Below, piece by piece: positions 20-10,814 of a stretch of 64,000 nt of DNA (position 1 is its first letter; every line of letters begins with the position of its first letter). The notes beneath the pieces were generated by a model, which did no database searches, was not told where the DNA came from, and saw only the letters and a program-made list of their open reading frames with translations. This DNA comes from Escherichia phage EC148, in the sequence record NC_106721.1. One strand, 5' to 3'. The translations under genes were made by a program, and so were the position numbers.

Positions 20-754
20 TTACGCAACTTTTAATTTCTCGATATATTGTTGCGGGCTGCAACTATATTCTGCGCGTTCTTCCTCGGTCATACCTTCCCA
101 ACATAATTTCAAACGATCAGCTAGGAATTGATAATCATTATCATCATCGAGGGATTCATCAATAAAGGTTTCACCTATCAATGCCACGCCGATTGATAGA
201 ATATCGTTAACGGCTTGCGCGTCCAGCGTTTTAAATCCGTATGATGCCGCCGCTGATAGTACACCCTTATGATCGTCAATCATTGTAAAATCAGCGTTCG
301 GATATAACTGTTTAAATAATTCAAAATAATAAGATTTATATACTGCGTCTTTGCTGTGGTATATTTCGCTAACTTTATCAGCTTCAAAATATTTGTGTAG
401 TGTATCACGGGAAAACACGCGGATATTACTATTACCACGACCGCGCAGACCTTGTTTACGCAAATAATAATAGTCCGACTTGCTCATTAGTCGAGCGGTA
501 CAAATAATGTTTAAAGTATTTGCGTCATTCATGCACTGGCGCATGTATTCAACTAATGGTAATAAAGTATCCTGCATTATTAAATGATGTTTGCAGGCTT
601 CATTTTTATACTTATTTAAATCTAAATTGCCCTCACTATCAAAGCAAGGCGCTACACGATGGAAAGAATTAACGATAGTGCCGTCTAAATCCCAAATCAT
701 GACGCGGGAAATATGCGGGAAGCTGCGGGAAAGATTCATGATAGCTTTATTCAT
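20..754 (-). CDS. dmp: 5'-deoxyribonucleotidase, HAD-family phosphatase (T5 dmp-like)
   Basis: 244 aa ORF with HAD motif I (WDLDGTIV) near the N-terminus; first gene of pre-early block. Confidence 0.65.
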   Translation of the reverse strand: MNKAIMNLSRSFPHISRVMIWDLDGTIVNSFHRVAPCFDSEGNLDLNKYKNEACKHHLIMQDTLLPLVEYMRQCMNDANTLNIICTARLMSKSDYYYLRKQGLRGRGNSNIRVFSRDTLHKYFEADKVSEIYHSKDAVYKSYYFELFKQLYPNADFTMIDDHKGVLSAAASYGFKTLDAQAVNDILSIGVALIGETFIDESLDDDNDYQFLADRLKLCWEGMTEEERAEYSCSPQQYIEKLKVA

Positions 755-1577: not shown

Positions 1578-3242
1578 TTACGCAAAGAATTTACCGTTTT
1601 TAAAGTCAATCAAAGTGCGCTGACCGTTTGCATAGGTAATTAAATGCGTCTGCGTCCAGCTTGACGCGCCAACGTTGTAACCCATATCCAGACTACCAGC
1701 TACGCCAGCGGTGTATACGCCGCCGTAAATGCTGGCGGTATGCGTATGCCCCGTGTTTAACTTGCCCAATTTCTTAAATTGTTTCGGGTTGCCACGGCTG
1801 CCGTTAATGCCGTTGTGACCGTGTACGCCGCATTCAATACCTGCAATCTTGAAAGATTGGTCAGTGGTTAGGAAAATGGCGTTAAACTCACAACCTGCAA
1901 CCTTGCGCAACGCATAATCTAGCACGTTGAAAGTATCGTCATGCTCACCGATTGCCGCGTAAATTGCAGCATTTAGGCGGTGATATAGTTCGGCGTTGGC
2001 GGGATCGTCTTTAATGTTAGCATTACGATCATCAAGCCAGCGGGATAGCGCCAAATCGTGATTCGATTCTACGATGATTGTTTGACTAAAATCACGTTCC
2101 ATTGATTCCAGCACGCGCCCCGTATCGATAAGATCATCCAGAACTTTATCACGTCCGGCGGCATACTGTTTCGCTAGGAATACACCGGATGCACGGTTAT
2201 GATGATTGCGCGATGTAAAATCATGCACGTCATGAATAAGCTGATATTTTGGTTTAAGAATATCAAGCAAACTATTCTCGCCAGCCCATGACGCAACGGC
2301 ACAATCATCATCTAATTTTTCGGCGTGAATATCGCCATACTGCAAGCCTAAAACATGCCCCGATGTTTCATAGCATCCGGCAGGAGTAGCGCAAACGTTC
2401 AGATCATAAAACACCCCGCTTTCGTCCATCGTTTCAAGCTGGCGTACAAAAAATTCCCCGTCGTCGTCGAACTCAACAATAAGCGCACCGAAGTTATGCA
2501 GCGCCTCGGCCTTTTGTCCTGCTTTCTGCTGAATGTAGTTTTTGAGCGTTGCCGTTCCGGTTGAATACATACGGCGCACTACTTCACCTTTTAAAGCTGG
2601 CACACTTTCAGCGGTGATTTTAGCGTGACCAATTGCCAGACCTTCAATATTTAAAGCCGTTGCAGTTTCTGCGAATCCAGAAAGCGGATAATCTGCGGTT
2701 GGCAAAACATTAATTTCAGCCATGAAAGCGAAACGGCGGTTATTTAAAAACACGTTTTTGCTGCAAATATATTTATCAAACGCGGAATCATATTTGATTC
2801 CATCCGCACCTTCCCCATTTTGAAAACCGTTTTTATTATAAATATACTTAGAAACGAGCAAATCAGCGCCGATAAATTTGGCATATTGTTCAAGTGAGGC
2901 CAAAAAGTTTTTATGCGGGAAAGTATTATTCTGAATCGATGTAATAATAAAGCGTTTGCCTTGTTTTACTTCCCACTGTTCAACCGTGCTAGAAACAACC
3001 CCCGCCGCTTCTGGGCGCTCGTCGTTTTTAATGGCTTTTGCTACTTTCGCCGCTTTCGGTTTCGCTGGTTTATTTGCTTCCAACCAATCACAAATGGCGG
3101 TGGAGTGTTTCGTTGTATCGTAGACCGCTTTTGATATATCGTCGCAGACTTCCAGTTTAGTAGCGCGCAGACGTTTACCATAGAAATTAAAGTCAGCGGC
3201 CATTTTCAGGATAACGGTTTGTTTTTCTGCGGAAATAATCAT
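1578..3242 (-). CDS. A1: A1-like pre-early protein, calcineurin-type metallophosphoesterase
   Basis: 554 aa ORF; phosphoesterase motifs GDIH, HDVHDF, ESNHD, GHNG/GHTH; position after dmp matches T5 pre-early order. Confidence 0.65.
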   Translation of the reverse strand: MIISAEKQTVILKMAADFNFYGKRLRATKLEVCDDISKAVYDTTKHSTAICDWLEANKPAKPKAAKVAKAIKNDERPEAAGVVSSTVEQWEVKQGKRFIITSIQNNTFPHKNFLASLEQYAKFIGADLLVSKYIYNKNGFQNGEGADGIKYDSAFDKYICSKNVFLNNRRFAFMAEINVLPTADYPLSGFAETATALNIEGLAIGHAKITAESVPALKGEVVRRMYSTGTATLKNYIQQKAGQKAEALHNFGALIVEFDDDGEFFVRQLETMDESGVFYDLNVCATPAGCYETSGHVLGLQYGDIHAEKLDDDCAVASWAGENSLLDILKPKYQLIHDVHDFTSRNHHNRASGVFLAKQYAAGRDKVLDDLIDTGRVLESMERDFSQTIIVESNHDLALSRWLDDRNANIKDDPANAELYHRLNAAIYAAIGEHDDTFNVLDYALRKVAGCEFNAIFLTTDQSFKIAGIECGVHGHNGINGSRGNPKQFKKLGKLNTGHTHTASIYGGVYTAGVAGSLDMGYNVGASSWTQTHLITYANGQRTLIDFKNGKFFA

Positions 3243-3581: not shown

Positions 3582-3989
3582 TTATTCGCCTGCGGCTTGT
3601 TTTACTTCATCGGCAACGCCTAACAATTGCGCTACTGCGTCCAGCGTTTCAAGTTTTGCACTTTCAAGGCTTGCCAGATCATCGGCATCTTTGATAATGC
3701 CGGAATCGATAGCGTGTTTTGCAATAACGCGTACATAATGAGCTTTGCGGATTGAACTACCGCCGCCAACTTTGCGAGGCTTATCGCTTTTTTGATATGC
3801 TTTTGCGCTGGTCAATTTTGACCGAACGGATACGGGAGAAGCCGCGCCCACTGCTTTTGCAATCTCTTTTAAACCGTCGCTATTTGCGAAATCTAAACCG
3901 TTTTCATTAATTAACTGTTGATACATGGAAACAGCTTTCTGAGTGTTTTCTTCATTCCATGCGAATTTTGCGATTTTAGCGTTAGTCAT
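3582..3989 (-). CDS. A2: A2-like pre-early protein
   Basis: 135 aa ORF downstream of A1 with the same conserved upstream leader motif as dmp and A1; size and position fit T5 A2. Confidence 0.45.
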   Translation of the reverse strand: MTNAKIAKFAWNEENTQKAVSMYQQLINENGLDFANSDGLKEIAKAVGAASPVSVRSKLTSAKAYQKSDKPRKVGGGSSIRKAHYVRVIAKHAIDSGIIKDADDLASLESAKLETLDAVAQLLGVADEVKQAAGE

Positions 3990-4085: not shown

Positions 4086-4337
4086 TTACAATACAGCTTC
4101 CCATTTTTCGTTGCGTTGAACAACCTTTACAACATCGCCGGATTTAACGCGAACGCTAAAAACGGGCTTGCCGTTGTTACTACGTTCATTTTCAGCGTAT
4201 ACCGCGTCGATTGTATCGAACGGCATAAGCGCCGCACCTTTAATACGTTCGGCCTTTCCGGTTAATTCATCCGTTTTAGTAACGAAAGGAATGAAGACGG
4301 ATTGACCAACTTTCGGCGCGGTAATAACGTTTTGCAT
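4086..4337 (-). CDS. hypothetical protein
   Basis: 83 aa ORF, co-directional pre-early block. Confidence 0.4.
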   Translation of the reverse strand: MQNVITAPKVGQSVFIPFVTKTDELTGKAERIKGAALMPFDTIDAVYAENERSNNGKPVFSVRVKSGDVVKVVQRNEKWEAVL

Positions 4338-5218
4338 AATATAAACTCCTAGTTATTTGGGGATTGTTCCGCATTACCTGCTAGAAAGTAACAGCAGGTA
4401 ATAAGTAACAATCCGCTCGCCAATATAATCAATTTTAAAGAACTCCACGTAGGCCGCTATATCCCGTTAGGGGGCGGGATGCATTATGGTAAGCACCGAC
4501 CGTCAAATTTTATCAAGTTATCGCTCTTATCGAACTGGGTACATCTTAAAACCTATCGGCTAGGTTGTCAAACAATTTTTTGCAATTTTTTATGATTTTC
4601 TTTTAGGTCAATCATAATATTTCGCCAGATCATTTCCAGACCTTGCTGGCGACCTTTCTTGTACTGCGTGAATCTATATCTTACTGATCTTTGAGCTACT
4701 GTCAACAAATTTTTTGTTTTGCTATCTAGTGCCTTAATAGGCTTGCCAGTGATCAAAAGCGTTTGTTTCATATCGTCGATTCCTTATAATGAATAAGTTT
4801 ACCGCCGATAGGCTTTAAGATGTACCCAATTTTTAAAGAGCGTGGCGGTAAACTTCCCGCCGTGTAGTTCGTCATTGCCGCCCTACGAGATAAATAATAG
4901 GGGATTCCCGAAAATGGCGCAACCTTATTTTTGTAAAGAAATGTAAAGGTAAAACTCACCGGACACCGTGCGGCGACGGCCTAAAATTAAAAGAAACGGG
5001 CGCGCGAATACCACAAAATAAAGCAAATAGGCAAGTAATTTTTTCATTTATATTTGCTTTGCCCTACTTGACAAAATCTAAAAAGCTCGTGGTAATGATA
5101 AACGGCTTATCCCCTTATGATGGGATGGCTAAAAACTTTATTGCGTTCTGGAGCGTTTTAGGCGCATTCTAGCCTTGTTGATAACTTATCCCCAAAAGCA
5201 AAAATGAAATTTTCCTAG

Positions 5219-5251
5219 TTATCCACTTGACTTTTATTTTCCAGTGGATAA
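5219..5251. promoter_or_regulatory. inverted pair of DnaA-box-like 9-mers (TTATCCACT / AGTGGATAA)
   Basis: 8/9 matches to TTATCCACA on both strands, 15 bp apart, in an ORF-free AT-rich region. Confidence 0.45.
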
Positions 5252-5505
5252 CTACTTATTTTATGAAATAAATTAATTGACTTTTATTTGTTAGTATGCA
5301 TCGGAAAGATAGCAGACTAATAATTGCTAGAATGATAATCATGCTGGTGGATTGTAACGACCTGAATTATTAGCAGACTATTAATCACGGAAAAATCTCA
5401 TTAGCCAACTAACTATTTCATGATATATAATATACATATAAATTAATGAGAAATAATAACTATAAGAAATCATCTAGCTAAGTGAGAACCACTATCATTT
5501 AAGTT

Positions 5506-5514
5506 ATACACAAA
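5506..5514 (+). promoter_or_regulatory. DnaA box (TTATCCACA)
   Basis: perfect 9-mer consensus read directly. Confidence 0.5.
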
Positions 5515-5576
5515 GTTATCCACAGCACTTTTTGACTTGACACGATAGGCGGCGATATAAGGACTTTTACACAGAC

Positions 5577-5585
5577 TTATCCACA
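5577..5585 (+). promoter_or_regulatory. DnaA box (TTATCCACA)
   Basis: perfect 9-mer consensus read directly. Confidence 0.5.
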
Positions 5586-5877
5586 GGTTATCCTACTGTA
5601 TATTTATACAGGGTAAAAAGGTAGTGTTAACAACTGCAATCAATTTTAAGCGGCTTAAATCGCATTCTAACGAGCTAAACGCTGTAAGGTAATATTAAAG
5701 TAAAGCCTCAATGCGTCGGCCTGGTGGCTTCGCCGTGGTTTGCTCTTTATTGCACCGCTGCGCGGTTATCATAAAAATAGGCGCTAGGCAAGGAAAATAA
5801 AAAGGTAAAATAATATTTGCCTATGCTAGAAATTTACCTTTATCATTCACTCACCGATTAACGAGGAGGCCGAACAA

Positions 5878-6888
5878 ATGAGGCTGTATAAACCTGATAA
5901 TGCCACCGTATTAAAGGGTGCATTGCGCAACCTGCTAGACGGTAGCAAGTCAACCAGCATTAAACATTTTATTAACAAGATTGAAACTATTCATCAAAAC
6001 TTTTTTGATGATTATGACGCTTATGATATGGATAGTTTTCTACCCTTATATAGACAAGGGGCAACGCTAGTTTTATATAATCGGGATTGCCATATCTTTA
6101 CAGGCAGGGGAGCGGGGCCGGATACCGATTTTATTGTTGCGCAGGGTAATAATATTGTTGCGTATCATAGCAATTCAGGCCGTCAATCATTTAATATAAA
6201 TAGTTTTGAGCTTATTGGACTTGATCTGATAAATGGACTTTCTAGCATTGAGGGATTTTTAGATGTTATCTGGAAGTATTTACCCGCTGGATGGCATAAG
6301 CCGGATAACGACGGATCTCAATATACCGGTATAATGGCTTTTGATGGCGACGGTAATTTTTTGTTACCACGGGAGCTATACCCATATATTTATGATGGGG
6401 ATATAGAAAGCGCTGGTTTTTCTTTCTGGAAAGATGAAGATCAGATTATTGACAGCGTAGAAAACCATGCTGTAAATTCTAACACTCAAAGCGTTAACAC
6501 TCAAACTACTGAAAACAAAGGAAAAAACACCATGACCAAGATTGCTAACATCGTTGCCGCCAATAAATCCGCTGTTGTAAATGCTGCAAAACTGGAGGCG
6601 GGTAAAATTGCATTAACTCAAATTACGAAAGTAGCGGCTAAAAAAGCACCATTCATGATCAAAGGTTATATCGATACACCTATTGGTCGTGTAGTGATCG
6701 CTAACCTGCTGAGTGTAGCGGTTGACCAGTACGCACCGACTAACCAAAAGGCGAAAGCGGTAGCGGGGGCGGCTATGGAAGCGGCAATGCTGGAAATGGT
6801 GCAAAGTTTTAACATCGCTGAAATGATTGATGAAATGGTGAAAGGTATTGATATTTCTACTTTTACCACTAACACCGAAAGCGAGTAA
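5878..6888 (+). CDS. hypothetical protein
   Basis: 336 aa ORF preceded by GAGGAGG RBS; Ala/Lys-rich C-terminal half; hairpin terminator follows. Confidence 0.5.
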   Translation: MRLYKPDNATVLKGALRNLLDGSKSTSIKHFINKIETIHQNFFDDYDAYDMDSFLPLYRQGATLVLYNRDCHIFTGRGAGPDTDFIVAQGNNIVAYHSNSGRQSFNINSFELIGLDLINGLSSIEGFLDVIWKYLPAGWHKPDNDGSQYTGIMAFDGDGNFLLPRELYPYIYDGDIESAGFSFWKDEDQIIDSVENHAVNSNTQSVNTQTTENKGKNTMTKIANIVAANKSAVVNAAKLEAGKIALTQITKVAAKKAPFMIKGYIDTPIGRVVIANLLSVAVDQYAPTNQKAKAVAGAAMEAAMLEMVQSFNIAEMIDEMVKGIDISTFTTNTESE

Positions 6889-6896
6889 TAATATTT

Positions 6897-6925
6897 AGCG
6901 GGGATTATTTCCCCGCTTTACTACT
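6897..6925 (+). terminator. hairpin terminator candidate
   Basis: stem AGCGGGGA/TCCCCGCT followed by T-rich tract directly after the 336 aa ORF. Confidence 0.45.
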
Positions 6926-6953
6926 CCCTTGTTAATTAATAGGAGGCTAATAA

Positions 6954-7448
6954 ATGGCTGAGGAAAAATACGGCTTCTCGCTAGGGGAAGTGAGCACGGC
7001 TAAACATGATATGATCATTTTAGTCGATTGTCATACTGGCTATTGCGGGGAAGGGAATACCGAGGAATACTTTGTTCCTGCTGGTACGGATCTGGACGCT
7101 TTCGCTCATGAAATGGCTATTGATAATGCTTCTCGTTTTGGTAGCGATGGCTATGAAGACGAAGAAACTGGCGAATGGTATGAAAATGAAAACGTATATG
7201 CTGGCCTTTATCATTATCAATTAAGTAAATCCGGCACATATGTAAACGGCGGCGATCCTATTAATTCCGTCATGAAATTAATTATTAAATATGGTGGCGT
7301 CGAAATAATTGATAATAAAGCGGTAATATACGCAAATCGATTAAAACAGCTTGTTTATATTCCTGATAATACCCGATGGGAGGAATACGCTGTTTTACAT
7401 GATGAATTAAAACGATGTTTCAATGTTGAATCCTTACAGGTAGTTTAA
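6954..7448 (+). CDS. hypothetical acidic protein
   Basis: 164 aa ORF with AGGAGG RBS. Confidence 0.5.
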   Translation: MAEEKYGFSLGEVSTAKHDMIILVDCHTGYCGEGNTEEYFVPAGTDLDAFAHEMAIDNASRFGSDGYEDEETGEWYENENVYAGLYHYQLSKSGTYVNGGDPINSVMKLIIKYGGVEIIDNKAVIYANRLKQLVYIPDNTRWEEYAVLHDELKRCFNVESLQVV

Positions 7449-7552
7449 TGTAAAGTTTTGTAAAGGTCGCCTTTTATGGTGGCCTTTTTTGTTATAATGC
7501 TTTTACACCAAAACGGTGGATTAAAAATTTCCCAAAAATTTGGAGGCTTAAA

Positions 7553-7783
7553 ATGGTTGCTTACTCTTCTGCTACTCATCTGTTCACCGCTCAAGGCTGG
7601 GTATCTAACCGCGCCATTATTCATGAAATGGTGCAGGAGTTCGGCATTGCTAAAACTTATAACACCATCCAAGAACTATACAACGCCGATAAAATCGATC
7701 AGCAAACGGCGGGCTTTTTGCTGGACACGCTGAAAGCGGAACACTGTACTAAAAAACAAGCTGCAAAAATTGTTTTAATGTAA
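7553..7783 (+). CDS. hypothetical protein
   Basis: 76 aa ORF with GGAGG RBS. Confidence 0.4.
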   Translation: MVAYSSATHLFTAQGWVSNRAIIHEMVQEFGIAKTYNTIQELYNADKIDQQTAGFLLDTLKAEHCTKKQAAKIVLM

Positions 7784-7830
7784 TTAGTAACGGGGGATAT
7801 TATATCCCCCACTGACTAGGAGAATAAAAA

Positions 7831-7980
7831 ATGGTTATTTTTCGAGCTATTCTGGCGGGTATCTTGGGCGCTATTTTATCGTTGTTTGCAATAGCTTTTG
7901 GCGTTCACGCCGTTATTATTGGCGCTGGCATTGCTGCGTTTTCTTATCTGCTGGGCTGCATGACTAGTAAAGGAGAATAA
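7831..7980 (+). CDS. small hydrophobic membrane peptide (49 aa)
   Basis: own translation: MVIFRAILAGILGAILSLFAIAFGVHAVIIGAGIAAFSYLLGCMTSKGE; RBS AGGAGAA upstream; below the 60 aa cutoff of the ORF track. Confidence 0.4.
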   Translation: MVIFRAILAGILGAILSLFAIAFGVHAVIIGAGIAAFSYLLGCMTSKGE

Positions 7981-7982
7981 AA

Positions 7983-8195
7983 ATGATCCGCAACGTTTCC
8001 CTTGCACGTTCGAAAGGCTTTAAGCTGGTGGATGTTAACACGTTCGAGCGGGAAGATTGTAAAATCGAATATGTAGCACGTAACAAAAATGCCTTTCGTG
8101 TTACCGAGAAAAAATTTGATAAGCGCGGCAACGTGATAGCTGAAACAGTTAAACACTTTGCCACCTTTTACGCTGCGTTTCGTGGGGTACTATGA
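7983..8195 (+). CDS. hypothetical protein
   Basis: 70 aa ORF, start 3 nt after previous stop. Confidence 0.4.
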   Translation: MIRNVSLARSKGFKLVDVNTFEREDCKIEYVARNKNAFRVTEKKFDKRGNVIAETVKHFATFYAAFRGVL

Positions 8196-8335
8196 AAAGC
8201 GTTATTGTTATTATCCTTGCAATGGCTGGCGGTTTTATCGCCACCTTATTTAAAAATGACCCCATTTCATTGGGGATCTTTATGCTTTTATCTGGCTATC
8301 TAATCGGGAGGCTAACAAATGATTCAGCAAATTAA
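8192..8335 (+). CDS. small hydrophobic membrane peptide (47 aa)
   Basis: own translation MKSVIVIILAMAGGFIATLFKND...; ATGA start/stop overlap with upstream gene. Confidence 0.4.
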   Translation: MKSVIVIILAMAGGFIATLFKNDPISLGIFMLLSGYLIGRLTNDSAN

Positions 8336-8441
8336 AACGGCTTTTCGTTTTTGGGGCGTCCTGCCTTCAATTGGTTTTATTCTGATAATTATTAGTCAGC
8401 TAATGATCATCGGCGGAACTATTTGGGAGCTATGCAAATGA
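8319..8441 (+). CDS. small hydrophobic membrane peptide (40 aa)
   Basis: own translation MIQQIKTAFRFWGVLPSIGFILIIISQLMIIGGTIWELCK; overlaps the previous peptide gene in another frame. Confidence 0.35.
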   Translation: MIQQIKTAFRFWGVLPSIGFILIIISQLMIIGGTIWELCK

Positions 8442-8782
8442 TAATTTATGAAGGCAATCGTTTTGTTGCTAATTGCCGCCCAGCATTATTAGCAAACTAT
8501 TTAAATCAGCTTTCCCCAGCTTATAAGGGCGTTATTAATATTTATGAGGGCAAGGCACATTATAAAATTAATGCGGTCGTTGCCCGTGAACTAGCGTTTC
8601 AATTTTTGACCTTTGCATCTTGTGACGTTCAGGTTATGGGTGAAGCATTAATTGCAGAAAATGAAGATGATTTTATTAATATTTTCCGCAAGGTATGTAC
8701 CGAGCGCCTGATAATGAAAGGCGCATATATTCAATCCACTGCGGATAGTATTGAAACAGCGTTTCGAAAGGTGGCGCAATGA
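8438..8782 (+). CDS. hypothetical protein
   Basis: ORF track 8423..8782; start moved to ATG at 8438 (ATGA overlap with upstream stop). Confidence 0.45.
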   Translation: MIIYEGNRFVANCRPALLANYLNQLSPAYKGVINIYEGKAHYKINAVVARELAFQFLTFASCDVQVMGEALIAENEDDFINIFRKVCTERLIMKGAYIQSTADSIETAFRKVAQ

Positions 8783-8883
8783 GATTATATATTTTCGTTG
8801 GTAATAGTAAGGCCGCTAATGATTCCGCTGGTGGCGATAACATTCGCCACTATTGGCAAAAATATATTTACTAGGGAGTTATT

Positions 8884-9078
8884 ATGAGTAATAAAATAGT
8901 TGTAACCAAGATCAGTACAATGGTTGATGTTTTTTACGTGCCAGATACGCCGGAGAATCGGCAAGCGGTCGAGCGTGGCGAATATGATAAAGTGATTTAT
9001 GATCACGATGGTTATTATCAGTATTTGGTGGATTCCTACGGGGAGGAGGAAAAAATCACGCATCGACTACCAGACTAA
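8884..9078 (+). CDS. hypothetical protein
   Basis: 64 aa ORF with GGGAG RBS. Confidence 0.4.
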   Translation: MSNKIVVTKISTMVDVFYVPDTPENRQAVERGEYDKVIYDHDGYYQYLVDSYGEEEKITHRLPD

Positions 9079-9119
9079 TAATCACGGGGCGCAACTATCA
9101 GGGAGTGCCCCCAATTTTC

Positions 9120-9140
9120 AAATGAGAATGATTCTCATTT
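9120..9140. repeat. palindrome AAATGAGAATGATTCTCATTT
   Basis: near-perfect 21 bp inverted repeat; second copy at 9616-9635. Confidence 0.6.
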
Positions 9141-9435
9141 AACCGCGCCCGCGATGGTTAGCCTGCTAATGATTAGGGTGTTACGTGTCGCCTTGTGTGA
9201 TCGTTAGCTCGCTAACTAATTTCTAAGCCTCCTCCAATTTTACCCGTGTTTTAGTATCCCCAACAAAATTAAACGCGTTAGAATGCGTTTGAGAGCGTTT
9301 TAGCTGTATATTAGAATTATTCACTGCATAGGAATACTGTATATTTATACAGTAGGATAAGCTGTTGATAAGTCTGTTGATAACGCCTCAAAATGGCTAG
9401 GATTTTGTCAAGTCAAATCGTGCTGTTGATAAGTC

Positions 9436-9444
9436 TGTGGATAA
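9436..9444 (-). promoter_or_regulatory. DnaA box (TGTGGATAA, reverse orientation)
   Basis: perfect reverse complement of TTATCCACA next to two TGTTGATAA half-matches. Confidence 0.45.
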
Positions 9445-9615
9445 CTTAAATAATAGTGTTTCTCACTTCCATTCTTAAATACGAATCAGTATCATTCGCA
9501 TTTCACTATCTAACTAATAATCATTCCACTTTTTAAATGAGAATCGTTTCACTTCCTGAATAATTCTCATTTCCATTCTTAAATGCGAATTATTATCATT
9601 CACATTCCGCTTTTT

Positions 9616-9635
9616 AAATGAGAATGATTCTCATT
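9616..9635. repeat. palindrome AAATGAGAATGATTCTCATT (copy 2)
   Basis: same inverted repeat as 9120-9140, inside a block of tandem 30-50 bp repeats (9440-9650). Confidence 0.6.
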
Positions 9636-9677
9636 ATCATTCGTATTCAGGCAAGCAGGGCAATTGCCCTGCGCTTT

Positions 9678-10278
9678 TGTGCAAATCCGACATTTGCCCC
9701 CATGGATTACGCGTGGGCGTGTATGTGCGAATCCGACAATTTTTGGTAGTGTGCAAATCCGACCCGAAAAATTTTTATAATGTGCGGATCCGACAATGAA
9801 TTTTCCTAAAAACTCCAGCAATCCGATGCTGCGCATCAATCCTGTGGAATTAACTAGAATATGTGCAAATCCGACATGGGTTTATTTGTGCGAATCCGAC
9901 AAGATTTTTGTGACTTCGATTGGAGAGTGTGTGATTGTAAGAGTTTGGGGAGAAGTTGAGAGATCGAGAAAAATTTGAGGGAACTGCGAGAGGGGCGCAT
10001 GTTTGGTGCGTAGCACCTGATTTGCGGGGATTTTGGGGAAGAGTTGAGAAGATTTGGGTTAATTTGAGATTAGTGCAGATAAAGTAAAATCTTATTAGCT
10101 AAATGGGGCAAAATAGCTTGACAAGTGAAAGTTTCTGTGGCTCTAAAAACTCAGGCAATCATGGGCCTTCGGCCCGAAATAATGCTGCCATTTTCAAGAG
10201 ATTATATGTTCCTAAAAACTTAGGCAATTGTGCAAATCCGACCATAAATTTCTAGAAACACAATGTGCAAATCCGACA
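9678..10278 (+). repeat. dispersed direct repeats TGTGCRRATCCGACA, 8 copies
   Basis: copies read at about 9678, 9724, 9751, 9781, 9862, 9887, 10229 and 10264; irregular spacing, no ORF. Confidence 0.7.
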
Positions 10279-10320
10279 GTAATTTCTGGAAATGTGTTTT
10301 CAAAAAATGTCTCCTAGAAA

Positions 10321-10400
10321 TAACCGCCCTCCCCATAACCGCCCTGTATTAAACCGCCTAGTATATGTTCCTAGAAACTTAGGAGAACCGCCCTAGAAAG
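10321..10400 (+). repeat. short direct repeats AACCGCCCT (x4) interleaved with CTAGAAA motifs
   Basis: read directly; same ORF-free repeat region. Confidence 0.5.
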
Positions 10401-10814
10401 AGTGAGTATTTCGTGAGAACTCTGGAGTTTCTAGGAAAGTGTTGTGCCATCCTAGCAGATGAGCGGCAACAGGTGTATCATCTTGAATGTAAATTATGTG
10501 GTCAAAAGTTTTACTTTTATTTTAAATATAAGATCCCCCAGGGTTCTCATATAGAGCTTTGCCCCCGCCAGAAGGTCTCGTGATGTTTCTAGCAATTTAT
10601 ATTAAATTACTTATTAACTTGTCCTGTCGCTCCGTATCCTCCGCTACAAGTTAGTAATTTTAAATTACTGAACCACCACACCTTCTGTGTGGCAACTCTA
10701 AATGGTTAATTCTATTAACTCATAGAGTTATGATAACATACATTTAGCTATCTGTCAACGAGAGTTTGTATTTGAGTCTCGGTACAGGTATTGTGCACCG
10801 AGACATGCAGGATC

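What the first reader, a model, noticed from the sequence alone, without database searches (positions are those of the whole stretch)
4960..5877. 900 bp ORF-free region with DnaA boxes between divergent pre-early gene sets
Two perfect TTATCCACA boxes (5506-5514, 5577-5585), an inverted near-consensus pair (5219-5251) and several TTGACA/TTGACT -35-like hexamers lie in an AT-rich stretch without ORFs. This suggests host DnaA recruitment or a replication or injection control element.
Basis: seen in the sequence. Interest (0 to 1): 0.45.

Follow-up and report, generated by a model that had tools for sequence, protein, structure and literature searches.

The report
T5 pre-early DnaA/LexA-box repeat module
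This is the already-described non-coding "repeat region" in the first-injected DNA of a T5-like phage, whose conserved 132-base module carries paired binding sites for the host initiator DnaA and, apparently unreported, a near-perfect site for the SOS repressor LexA; what it does is still untested.

Summary
The window is the left terminal repeat (first-step-transfer DNA) of a T5-like phage, 99.9% identical to Escherichia phage SUT_E1520. The flagged gap, 4960-5877, corresponds to T5 "Repeat Regions 1+2".

The DnaA boxes are real and far above chance. One coordinate is wrong: the first perfect box is at 5516-5524, not 5506-5514.

Both perfect boxes lie in a 132-nt module (5480-5611), the known IRC-spacer-IRD element. 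Its inverted copy (9337-9468) lies in the injection-stop region. Davison (bioRxiv 2020) already described the eight boxes in 3-bp-spaced pairs and proposed that DnaA mediates the injection stop. No experiment has tested this.

New here:
- The pairs match the "double DnaA box" that E. coli DnaA prefers in vivo.
- Each module ends in a near-consensus LexA box (9335-9354 is 19/20; 5594-5613 is 17/20). It is kept in all 50 unique modules examined and in Proteus, Vibrio and Aeromonas relatives.
- The cassette between the two modules is inverted in Klebsiella GZ8 and Pectobacterium My1.

The inverted box pair at 5219-5251 is a clade-specific hairpin, not a conserved DnaA site. A replication origin is not supported.

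Verdict: a known element with inferred host-factor binding. The LexA component is a possibly new, testable lead.

The parts
4960..5877 (.). Untranslated region between the leftward (dmp-A1-A2-T5.007-009) and rightward (T5.011-like) pre-early operons. It equals T5 Repeat Regions 1+2 fused; T5's hegG HNH insert is absent.
   Evidence: Window 4400-5281 matches T5 4547-5419 and window 5369-6892 matches T5 6018-7509.
5142..5179 (+). Direct-repeat copy of 9284-9321, the sequence just left of the iss-side LexA box.
   Evidence: family D9 (71% identity).
5176..5194 (.). Back-to-back DnaA-like 9-mers (TTATCAACA on -, TTATCCCCA on +). Not conserved as boxes outside the closest clade.
5216..5254 (.). Palindrome/hairpin whose arms carry TTATCCACT. 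It is clade-specific.
   Evidence: I12, 15-nt arms, 93% complementary. (RNA fold -17 kcal/mol, z = -5.45); absent in T5 and HildyBeyeler; only the left half is kept in Epseptimavirus and GZ8.
5390..5480 (.). Very AT-rich stretch (GC 0.21) on the outer side of the module.
5480..5611 (+). Central 132-nt module (IRC-spacer-IRD). It is an inverted repeat of 9337-9468.
   Evidence: I1, 132 nt, 79% complementary, 3725 nt apart. (79.5% identity to T5 6098-6228)..
5481..5493 (+). AGTGAGAAnCACT motif (short AGTG/CACT inverted repeat), near-invariant at the outer end of every module. Binding partner unknown.
5504..5524 (+). Double DnaA box 1: TTATACACA-AAG-TTATCCACA.
5537..5542 (+). TTGACA; the cTTGAC core is near-invariant in both arms. 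It looks like a -35 element, but no conserved -10 follows.
   Evidence: own reading.
5565..5585 (+). Double DnaA box 2: TTTTACACA-GAC-TTATCCACA. It starts 61 nt after double box 1.
   Evidence: (D19).
5594..5613 (.). LexA/SOS-box-like palindrome TACTGTATATTTATACAGGG (17/20 to TACTGTATATATATACAGTA).
5658..5679 (.). Short inverted repeat with 9269-9290. It extends the symmetry of the two modules towards the interior.
   Evidence: I6.
5817..5846 (+). Promoter of the rightward operon: TTGCCT-N18-TATCAT with an A-rich upstream tract. Homologue of the annotated T5 promoter at 6411-6489. RBS at 5864-5870, ATG at 5878.
9337..9468 (-). Partner module in the injection-stop region (IRD'-spacer-IRC'), with double DnaA boxes at 9363-9383 and 9424-9444 on the minus strand.
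9335..9354 (.). LexA/SOS-box-like palindrome TACTGTATATTTATACAGTA (19/20 to consensus).

Best explanation
Shown:
- The region is the central untranslated region of a T5-like phage's first-step-transfer DNA.
- It contains the promoter of the rightward pre-early operon (5817-5846).
- Upstream of that promoter lies a conserved 132-nt module (5480-5611), one arm of an inverted repeat. The other arm (9337-9468) sits in the injection-stop region, so the two arms bracket the rightward operon.

Inferred from sequence:
- Each module is a docking site for host proteins. Two tandem double DnaA boxes, 61 nt apart, bind DnaA dimers or oligomers.
- The near-consensus SOS box on the interior-facing end binds a LexA dimer.

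Proposed mechanism (inference; an extension of Davison's untested model):
- As soon as the first 8% of the genome enters, DnaA and LexA load on both modules.
- They form nucleoprotein anchors or boundaries on the otherwise free linear DNA. DnaA is largely membrane-associated according to Davison.
- These complexes take part in holding or organising the first-step-transfer DNA during the pause before second-step transfer, and/or in confining pre-early transcription to the bracketed cassette.

The left-hand boxes (5176-5251) are not part of this conserved machinery.
For: Identity:
- 99.9% identical to a T5-like phage; 526 related phage records match.
- Collinear with the T5 left terminal repeat.
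- 132-nt inverted repeat, 5480-5611 against 9337-9468. It is homologous to T5's IRC-spacer-IRD and IRD'-spacer-IRC', described.

DnaA:
- 8 boxes against 0.28 expected in the region. Only 5 double boxes in 64 kb, all in the two modules, against 0.15 expected.
- E. coli DnaA binds in vivo almost only to pairs spaced 2-3 bp apart (PMC11317965).
- In 50 unique modules, box positions 1, 2, 4, 7, 8 and 9 are near-invariant. Variation sits at position 3 (A/T), position 5 (any base) and position 6 (C/A). Positions 3 and 5 match the TT(A/T)TNCACA consensus.
- Boxes carry 1.6-1.9 bits per position, against 1.2 in the spacer and 0.8 in the flanks.

LexA:
- Only two hits within 3 mismatches of the 20-mer consensus in 64 kb, against 0.01 expected. 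Both sit at the module ends.
- Two such sites occur in the window and in each of the 11 fetched loci that span both modules. Ob_P, whose locus stops before the injection-stop region, shows one.
- CTG-N10-CAG is kept in all 50 modules.

Both arms functional:
- The arms differ in the spacer, yet each is conserved with its orthologues. Boxes, TTGAC and the LexA box are shared between arms.

Family-wide:
- Proteus phage 1 and Vibrio phage Pontus (A1 proteins 31-41% identical) show the same layout. Aeromonas TS3 and Vibrio D124 (33-34%) show looser box-plus-LexA-box clusters.
- The module has no homologue in E. coli genomes.
Against: - There is no binding or genetic experiment for any T5-like phage.
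- Many boxes carry A at position 6 (TTATCAACA), which lies outside the classical consensus.
- The conserved G after each box (TTATCCACAG) and the invariant AGTGAGAAnCACT and TTGAC motifs are not explained by DnaA or LexA. A phage protein such as A2 could be involved.
- A protein bound to DNA already inside the cell does not obviously stop further entry.
- Davison's "Type 4" phages lack the central copy, so it is not universally required.
- To my knowledge (not tested here), T5 plates on recA laboratory strains. LexA cleavage therefore cannot be essential.
- Neither module overlaps the mapped promoters as a classical operator would. The LexA box lies about 200 nt (204-223) upstream of the P011 -35 hexamer.
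Confidence: 0.55

Rival explanations
1. Transcriptional boundary or operator only. DnaA and LexA bound to the modules act as roadblocks or repressors that confine or modulate pre-early transcription. Examples are stopping read-through out of the bracketed operon, or repressing a weak promoter using the conserved TTGAC. They would have no role in DNA transfer.
For: - The modules bracket the rightward operon symmetrically, with the LexA box facing the interior. This holds whichever way the cassette is oriented.
- The iss-side module follows terminator-like hairpins (T5 terminator annotation).
- DnaA and LexA jointly regulate E. coli uvrB (PMC6015884).
- cTTGAC is conserved in both arms.
Against: - No conserved -10 follows TTGAC (own reading).
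- The central module is about 200 nt (204-223) upstream of P011, not at an operator position.
- No transcript mapping is available.
Confidence: 0.25
2. The motifs are recognised by a phage protein, for example the DNA-binding A2 protein or A1/A2, and only resemble host DnaA and LexA sites.
For: - Invariant features that DnaA and LexA do not require: G after each box, AGTGAGAAnCACT and TTGAC.
- A2 is annotated as a DNA-binding protein needed for second-step transfer.
Against: - Two different host consensus motifs are matched almost perfectly (9/9 and 19/20).
- They stay matched in phages whose A1 proteins are only 31-41% identical. The host proteins' specificities are conserved across Gammaproteobacteria (established knowledge).
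- The 3-bp pair spacing equals the in vivo DnaA requirement.
Confidence: 0.1
3. DnaA-dependent replication origin or replication-control element in the terminal repeat.
For: - A DnaA-box cluster lies next to a 21% GC stretch.
- The arrangement was called reminiscent of oriC.
Against: - No oriC-type 13-mers in or near the region.
- The element is duplicated in inverted orientation around a gene cassette, not beside replication genes.
- T5 origins are reported near the genome centre, and replication genes are absent from the first-step-transfer DNA (Davison).
Confidence: 0.05
4. The central copy is mainly a recombination partner, or a relic of a duplication of the injection-stop module. Its boxes matter only in the iss copy.
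For: - The cassette between the arms is inverted in Klebsiella phage GZ8 and Pectobacterium phage My1.
- Type 4 phages lack the central copy, and boxes are most often lost in IRC.
Against: - The arms have diverged in the spacer, so there has been no recent homogenisation. Yet the central copy keeps its boxes, TTGAC and LexA box across genera, often closer to consensus than the iss copy.
Confidence: 0.05

Closest known systems
T5 Repeat Region 2 / IRC-spacer-IRD and its partner IRD'-spacer-IRC' in the injection-stop signal (nomenclature attributed to Wang et al. in Davison's preprint; Davison, bioRxiv 10.1101/866236)
   Same: - Same position in the left terminal repeat.
- Same 131-132-nt length.
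- Same inverted partner 3.7 kb to the right.
- Same four boxes per arm, in pairs with a 3-bp gap.
- Same 61-nt spacing between pair starts.
- 76-80% identity to the T5 copies.
   Different: - All four central boxes fit TT(A/T)TNCACA, whereas T5 has lost one.
- T5's HNH endonuclease insert between Repeat Regions 1 and 2 is absent.
- The LexA-box reading of the terminal palindrome is not in that paper.
E. coli double DnaA boxes (purH, polA, DARS2/mutH, mioC; Stringer, Fitzgerald and Wade 2024, PMC11317965)
   Same: - Two tandem 9-mers 3 bp apart.
- The downstream box is perfect and the upstream box is 7-8/9, as at purH.
   Different: - The phage has two such pairs 61 nt apart per module, and two modules per terminal repeat.
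- Binding is not demonstrated.
E. coli uvrB control region, co-regulated by LexA and DnaA (PMC6015884)
   Same: LexA and DnaA sites are combined in one short control region (abstract).
   Different: In uvrB the sites overlap promoters. In the phage module no promoter overlap could be shown.
oriC / datA / DARS DnaA-box clusters
   Same: Clustered, oriented DnaA boxes beside AT-rich DNA.
   Different: - No 13-mer unwinding element.
- Inverted duplicate arrangement around genes.
- A LexA box is present.
- No sequence homology to E. coli.

Membership tests
T5-type FST repeat element IRC-spacer-IRD | Lies in the untranslated gap between the leftward and rightward pre-early operons of the left terminal repeat. 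| tested here: met
T5-type FST repeat element IRC-spacer-IRD | Has an inverted copy of about 131 nt in the injection-stop region. | tested here: met
   (I1: 132 nt, 79% complementary).
T5-type FST repeat element IRC-spacer-IRD | Four DnaA-type boxes per arm, in pairs separated by 3 bp, at a fixed spacing. | tested here: met
   Pair starts at 5504 and 5565, and at 9363 and 9424, 61 nt apart in each case.
T5-type FST repeat element IRC-spacer-IRD | Sequence homology to the T5 element. | tested here: met
   (79.5% identity over 131 nt); alignment.
DnaA binding site (double DnaA box) | Two tandem 9-mers close to TTATCCACA with a 2-3-bp gap. | tested here: met
   (1-2 mismatches over 18 nt). Criterion taken.
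DnaA binding site (double DnaA box) | DnaA actually binds, in vitro or in vivo. | not testable with these tools
   No experiment is reported for T5-like phages.
LexA operator (SOS box) | CTGT-N8-ACAG palindrome close to TACTG(TA)5CAGTA. | tested here: met
   (19/20 and 17/20; expected 0.01). for conservation.
LexA operator (SOS box) | Overlaps or directly follows a promoter that it represses. | tested here: inconclusive
   Only weak consensus promoter matches lie nearby. None is conserved. P011 is about 200 nt (204-223) away.
LexA operator (SOS box) | LexA binds, and the target responds to SOS induction. | not testable with these tools
   No data found.
oriC-type replication origin | DnaA-box cluster. 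| tested here: met
oriC-type replication origin | Adjacent AT-rich 13-mer unwinding element. | tested here: not met
   no GATCTnTTnTTTT-like site in 4960-5877. An AT-rich stretch is present.
oriC-type replication origin | Replication initiates there. | not testable with these tools
   Davison states that origins map near the genome centre.
Divergent sigma-70 promoter region | Promoters for both flanking operons lie inside the gap. | tested here: inconclusive
   The rightward promoter P011 is present. The strong leftward promoter-like sites lie outside, at about 4543-4705. T5's annotated leftward promoter at 5938-6012 lies in the T5-specific insert.

The most novel reading that the evidence does not exclude
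Each module is a composite docking site for two host proteins, DnaA (two double boxes) and LexA (one near-consensus SOS box). It is conserved across Demerecviridae from Escherichia to Vibrio phages.

The LexA component was not found in the papers held in the searchable library. It would tie the first-step-transfer DNA to the host SOS state. LexA plus DnaA would clamp or insulate the bracketed pre-early cassette, and perhaps the paused DNA. LexA self-cleavage after A1-triggered host DNA breakdown would loosen that clamp.
Probability: 0.2. Interest if true: 0.75.

Novelty: already known. Interest (0 to 1): 0.4.

Why it matters
How T5 halts DNA entry after 8% of its genome and later resumes is still unsolved. 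The flagged element is half of the only conserved bipartite cis-element proposed to take part in that pause.

The finding itself repeats published observations. Three points sharpen the hypothesis into clean experiments:
- The box pairs match the in vivo DnaA binding rule.
- Both arms are independently constrained.
- A LexA box accompanies the boxes across the whole family.

The experiments are DnaA and LexA footprints, ChIP in arrested infections, and box-mutant phages. If LexA binding is real, a strictly virulent phage would be reading the host SOS repressor on its very first injected DNA.

Tried and rejected
- Rfam scan of 4300-10700: only two sub-threshold chance hits, so no known RNA.
- oriC-type 13-mer search: none in the region and no enrichment in the window.
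- Promoter in the module spacer: cTTGAC is conserved, but no -10 is conserved at 16-18 nt in either arm. Not accepted as a promoter.
- Left-hand boxes (5176-5251) as conserved DnaA sites: rejected. They are replaced or half-lost in T5, HildyBeyeler, Epseptimavirus and GZ8.
- Host origin of the module: no similarity in 5,426 E. coli genomes.
- Anchoring a collection scan on the 14-mer AAGTGAGAAACACT: mostly unrelated contigs. Six of the 57 unique sequences that passed my motif and offset filter were chance hits and were discarded.
- Literature on T5 plus LexA/SOS box: nothing relevant. Davison's 2015 review could not be opened. The 1987 and 2005 primary papers were not looked up. Prior mention of the SOS box there cannot be excluded.
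- Orientation rule for DnaA-box transcription blocks (Schaefer and Messer): could not be retrieved. The roadblock direction was therefore not assessed.

Full report
**Where we are.** The window is the left end of a T5-like phage genome. Bases 4700-6100 are 99.9% identical to Escherichia phage SUT_E1520, and 526 phage records match, mostly Salmonella, Escherichia and Klebsiella phages. Comparison with the annotated T5 record shows collinearity with the left terminal repeat, the first-step-transfer (FST) DNA:
- dmp at 20-754 (-)
- A1 at 1578-3242 (-)
- A2 at 3582-3989 (-)
- a T5.011 homologue at 5878-6888 (+)

Window 4400-5281 matches T5 4547-5419, and window 5369-6892 matches T5 6018-7509. T5's HNH endonuclease gene hegG and its promoter are replaced by 87 bp here. 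In Davison's terms, the flagged gap is T5 Repeat Regions 1 and 2, unsplit.

**Checking the observation.**
- Perfect TTATCCACA boxes lie at 5516-5524 and 5577-5585.
- The inverted TTATCCACT pair at 5219-5227 and 5243-5251 is real and lies in a 15-nt-arm palindrome.
- Counting boxes within one mismatch of TTATCCACA or fitting TT(A/T)TNCACA gives 8 in 918 bp. Local dinucleotide shuffles give 0.28, with a maximum of 3 in 2000.
- No ORF of 60 aa or more lies in the gap.
- AT-richness is modest overall (GC 0.358 against 0.392) and strong only at 5200-5500 (0.269).
- Five TTGACA/TTGACT hexamers are present.

**What the boxes belong to.**
- The two perfect boxes sit in a 132-nt element, 5480-5611. Its reverse complement recurs at 9337-9468 (79% complementary, 3725 nt away).
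- That second site carries the only other box cluster in the first 12 kb.
- Both copies are homologous to T5's IRC-spacer-IRD and IRD'-spacer-IRC'.
- Davison's preprint (10.1101/866236) describes exactly this. It reports eight DnaA or DnaA-like boxes per terminal repeat, in pairs 3 bp apart, conserved in 25 T5-like phages.
- The preprint proposes that membrane-bound DnaA holds the DNA at the injection-stop signal, with the central copy as a possible second attachment point. It attributes the first report of DnaA boxes in the stop region to a 1987 study.
- Later papers say the role remains experimentally untested.

- Tandem pairs with a 2-3-bp gap and at most 3 mismatches over 18 nt occur 5 times in the 64-kb window. 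All are in the two modules, against 0.15 expected.
- A 2024 ChIP-seq study found that E. coli DnaA binds in vivo almost exclusively to such "double DnaA boxes" spaced 2 or 3 bp apart. Adding one base pair to the gap greatly reduced binding (PMC11317965).
- An alignment of 25 module copies from 13 phages, and 50 unique gapless modules pooled from the window, fetched loci and IMG/VR, show box positions 1, 2, 4, 7, 8 and 9 nearly invariant.
- Variation falls at position 3 (A/T), position 5 (any base) and position 6 (C/A). The first two are the degenerate positions of the classical consensus.
- Boxes carry 1.6-1.9 bits per position, against 1.2 in the spacer and 0.8 in the flanks.
- The two arms differ from each other through most of the spacer. 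Each is conserved with its orthologues, and boxes, cTTGAC and the terminal palindrome are shared between arms. Both copies are therefore under their own constraint.

**A second host motif.**
- Each module ends, on the side facing the bracketed genes, in a palindrome that is a near-consensus LexA (SOS) box.
- 9335-9354 is TACTGTATATTTATACAGTA, 19/20 to TACTGTATATATATACAGTA. 5594-5613 is TACTGTATATTTATACAGGG, 17/20.
- These are the only two hits within 3 mismatches in 64 kb, against 0.01 expected.
- The window and the 11 fetched loci that span both modules each have two CTG-N10-CAG sites of this kind. Ob_P, whose locus is cut before the stop region, has one.
- All 50 unique modules keep CTG-N10-CAG. 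Variation is mainly at the two central bases and the last base.
- From memory of the recA and sulA operators (not tested here), the 19/20 site is closer to consensus than either.
- Davison's preprint never mentions LexA or SOS. Three library searches found nothing linking T5-like phages to LexA boxes.

**Breadth across the family.** The layout is AGTGAGAAnCACT, then boxes, then a LexA-like box about 8-10 nt after the last box.
- It recurs in Proteus phage 1 (Novosibvirus, L013 about 8270-8392).
- It recurs in Vibrio phage Pontus (Thalassavirus, L015 about 693-801), which also has an inverted box cluster at 4307-4473.
- Looser versions occur in Aeromonas phage TS3 and Vibrio phage D124.
- The A1 proteins of these phages are only 31-41% identical to the window's.
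- The module has no similarity to E. coli genomes.

**The rest of the gap.**
- The left-hand boxes (5176-5194) and the palindrome (5216-5254) are not conserved as DnaA sites.
- The palindrome exists only in the window/SP15/HMD-P3 clade. T5 and HildyBeyeler have unrelated sequence there. Epseptimavirus and Klebsiella phage GZ8 keep only the left half.
- The palindrome folds well as a hairpin (-17 kcal/mol, z = -5.45).
- The rightward promoter is TTGCCT-N18-TATCAT at 5817-5846. It is conserved and homologous to T5's annotated promoter.
- The strong leftward promoter-like sites lie outside the gap, at about 4543-4705. They probably correspond to T5's P_H22 and P_D/E20, which overlap the hdi gene.
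- Rfam finds nothing.

**An evolutionary inversion.**
- In Klebsiella phage GZ8 (Sugarlandvirus) and Pectobacterium phage My1 (Myunavirus), the genes between the two modules are orthologous to those of the window. They lie in reversed order and on the opposite strand, while both flanks stay collinear.
- This is seen in tblastx and BLASTP (36% identity over 336 aa, E = 2e-45; 39% identity, E = 1e-14; 51% identity, E = 7e-20).
- Davison read this as replacement by unrelated sequence read from the other strand.
- The modules keep their orientation, with the LexA box facing inward. They therefore behave as symmetric brackets whose role does not depend on the direction of the enclosed operon.

**Mechanism.**
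- Best supported: the module is a host-factor docking element (DnaA dimers on two double boxes, LexA on the SOS box). The pair of modules forms anchors or boundaries on the newly injected linear DNA.
- Whether these serve the transfer pause (Davison's idea) or confine pre-early transcription cannot be decided from sequence.
- Against a classical operator: neither module overlaps a mapped promoter.
- Against an origin: no 13-mer unwinding element. In addition, Davison states that T5 origins map near the genome centre and that replication genes are not expressed at the FST stage.
- Against a purely phage-protein reader: two host consensus motifs stay near-perfect across very divergent phages. 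Even so, AGTGAGAAnCACT, TTGAC and the G after each box remain unexplained.
- To my knowledge T5 plates on recA strains, so LexA cleavage cannot be essential.

**Verdict.** The feature is real, already described and functionally untested. The replication idea is not supported. The LexA box, the match to the double-box rule and the invertible cassette are additions worth a specialist's attention.

Noticed in passing
window 5594-5613 and 9335-9354: Near-consensus LexA/SOS boxes (17/20 and 19/20) sit at the interior-facing end of each inverted-repeat module. They are the only two such sites in 64 kb. They are conserved in all 50 unique modules examined and were not mentioned in the accessible T5 literature.
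   Followed up: yes
L004 (Klebsiella phage GZ8) 5739-9178; L006 (Pectobacterium phage My1) 6542-10476; compared with window 5612-9336: The gene cassette between the two modules is inverted in these two genera, in both order and strand, while the flanks stay collinear. Orthology was confirmed by BLASTP. Davison 2020 interpreted this as replacement by unrelated sequence.
   Followed up: yes
L013 8270-8392; L015 693-801 and 4307-4473; L014 7532-7580; L016 9088-9184: A DnaA-box plus LexA-box architecture recurs in distant Demerecviridae (Proteus, Vibrio and Aeromonas phages; A1 proteins 31-41% identical). The layout is closest in Proteus phage 1 and Vibrio Pontus, and looser in the other two.
   Followed up: partly
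window 5481-5493 and 9455-9467 (-): AGTGAGAAnCACT, a short AGTG/CACT inverted repeat, is near-invariant at the outer end of every module, including in Proteus phage 1. Its binding partner is unknown.
   Followed up: no
window 5282-5368 against T5 NC_005859 5420-6017: T5's HNH homing endonuclease gene hegG and its annotated promoter are absent here and replaced by 87 bp. The insertion point lies between Repeat Regions 1 and 2.
   Followed up: partly
window 9668-10285: Seven or more copies of TGTGC(A/G)AATCCGAC lie near the right edge of the region corresponding to T5's terminal repeat (probably T5's DRD repeats, not checked). GC skew spikes to 0.62 at 9900-10100.
   Followed up: no
window 4522-4560 and 4804-4842: A 39-nt inverted repeat (85% complementary) flanks the T5.008 (hdi) homologue. 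It is close to the two strongest leftward promoter-like sites (TTGACA...TAAGAT at 4571-4543 and 4705-4678).
   Followed up: no
window 5310-5324, 5371-5385, 9068-9082; inverted at 8379-8402: A 15-nt motif, TAGCAGACTAATAAT, is repeated 61 nt apart in the gap. It recurs near the end of the rightward operon in both orientations.
   Followed up: no
search hits OR846838.1 ("Listeria phage LM 4-11-1") and MG065642.1 ("Campylobacter phage A148"): Records labelled as Listeria and Campylobacter phages carry this T5-like region at 78-95% identity. They are probably mislabelled or contaminated entries.
   Followed up: no
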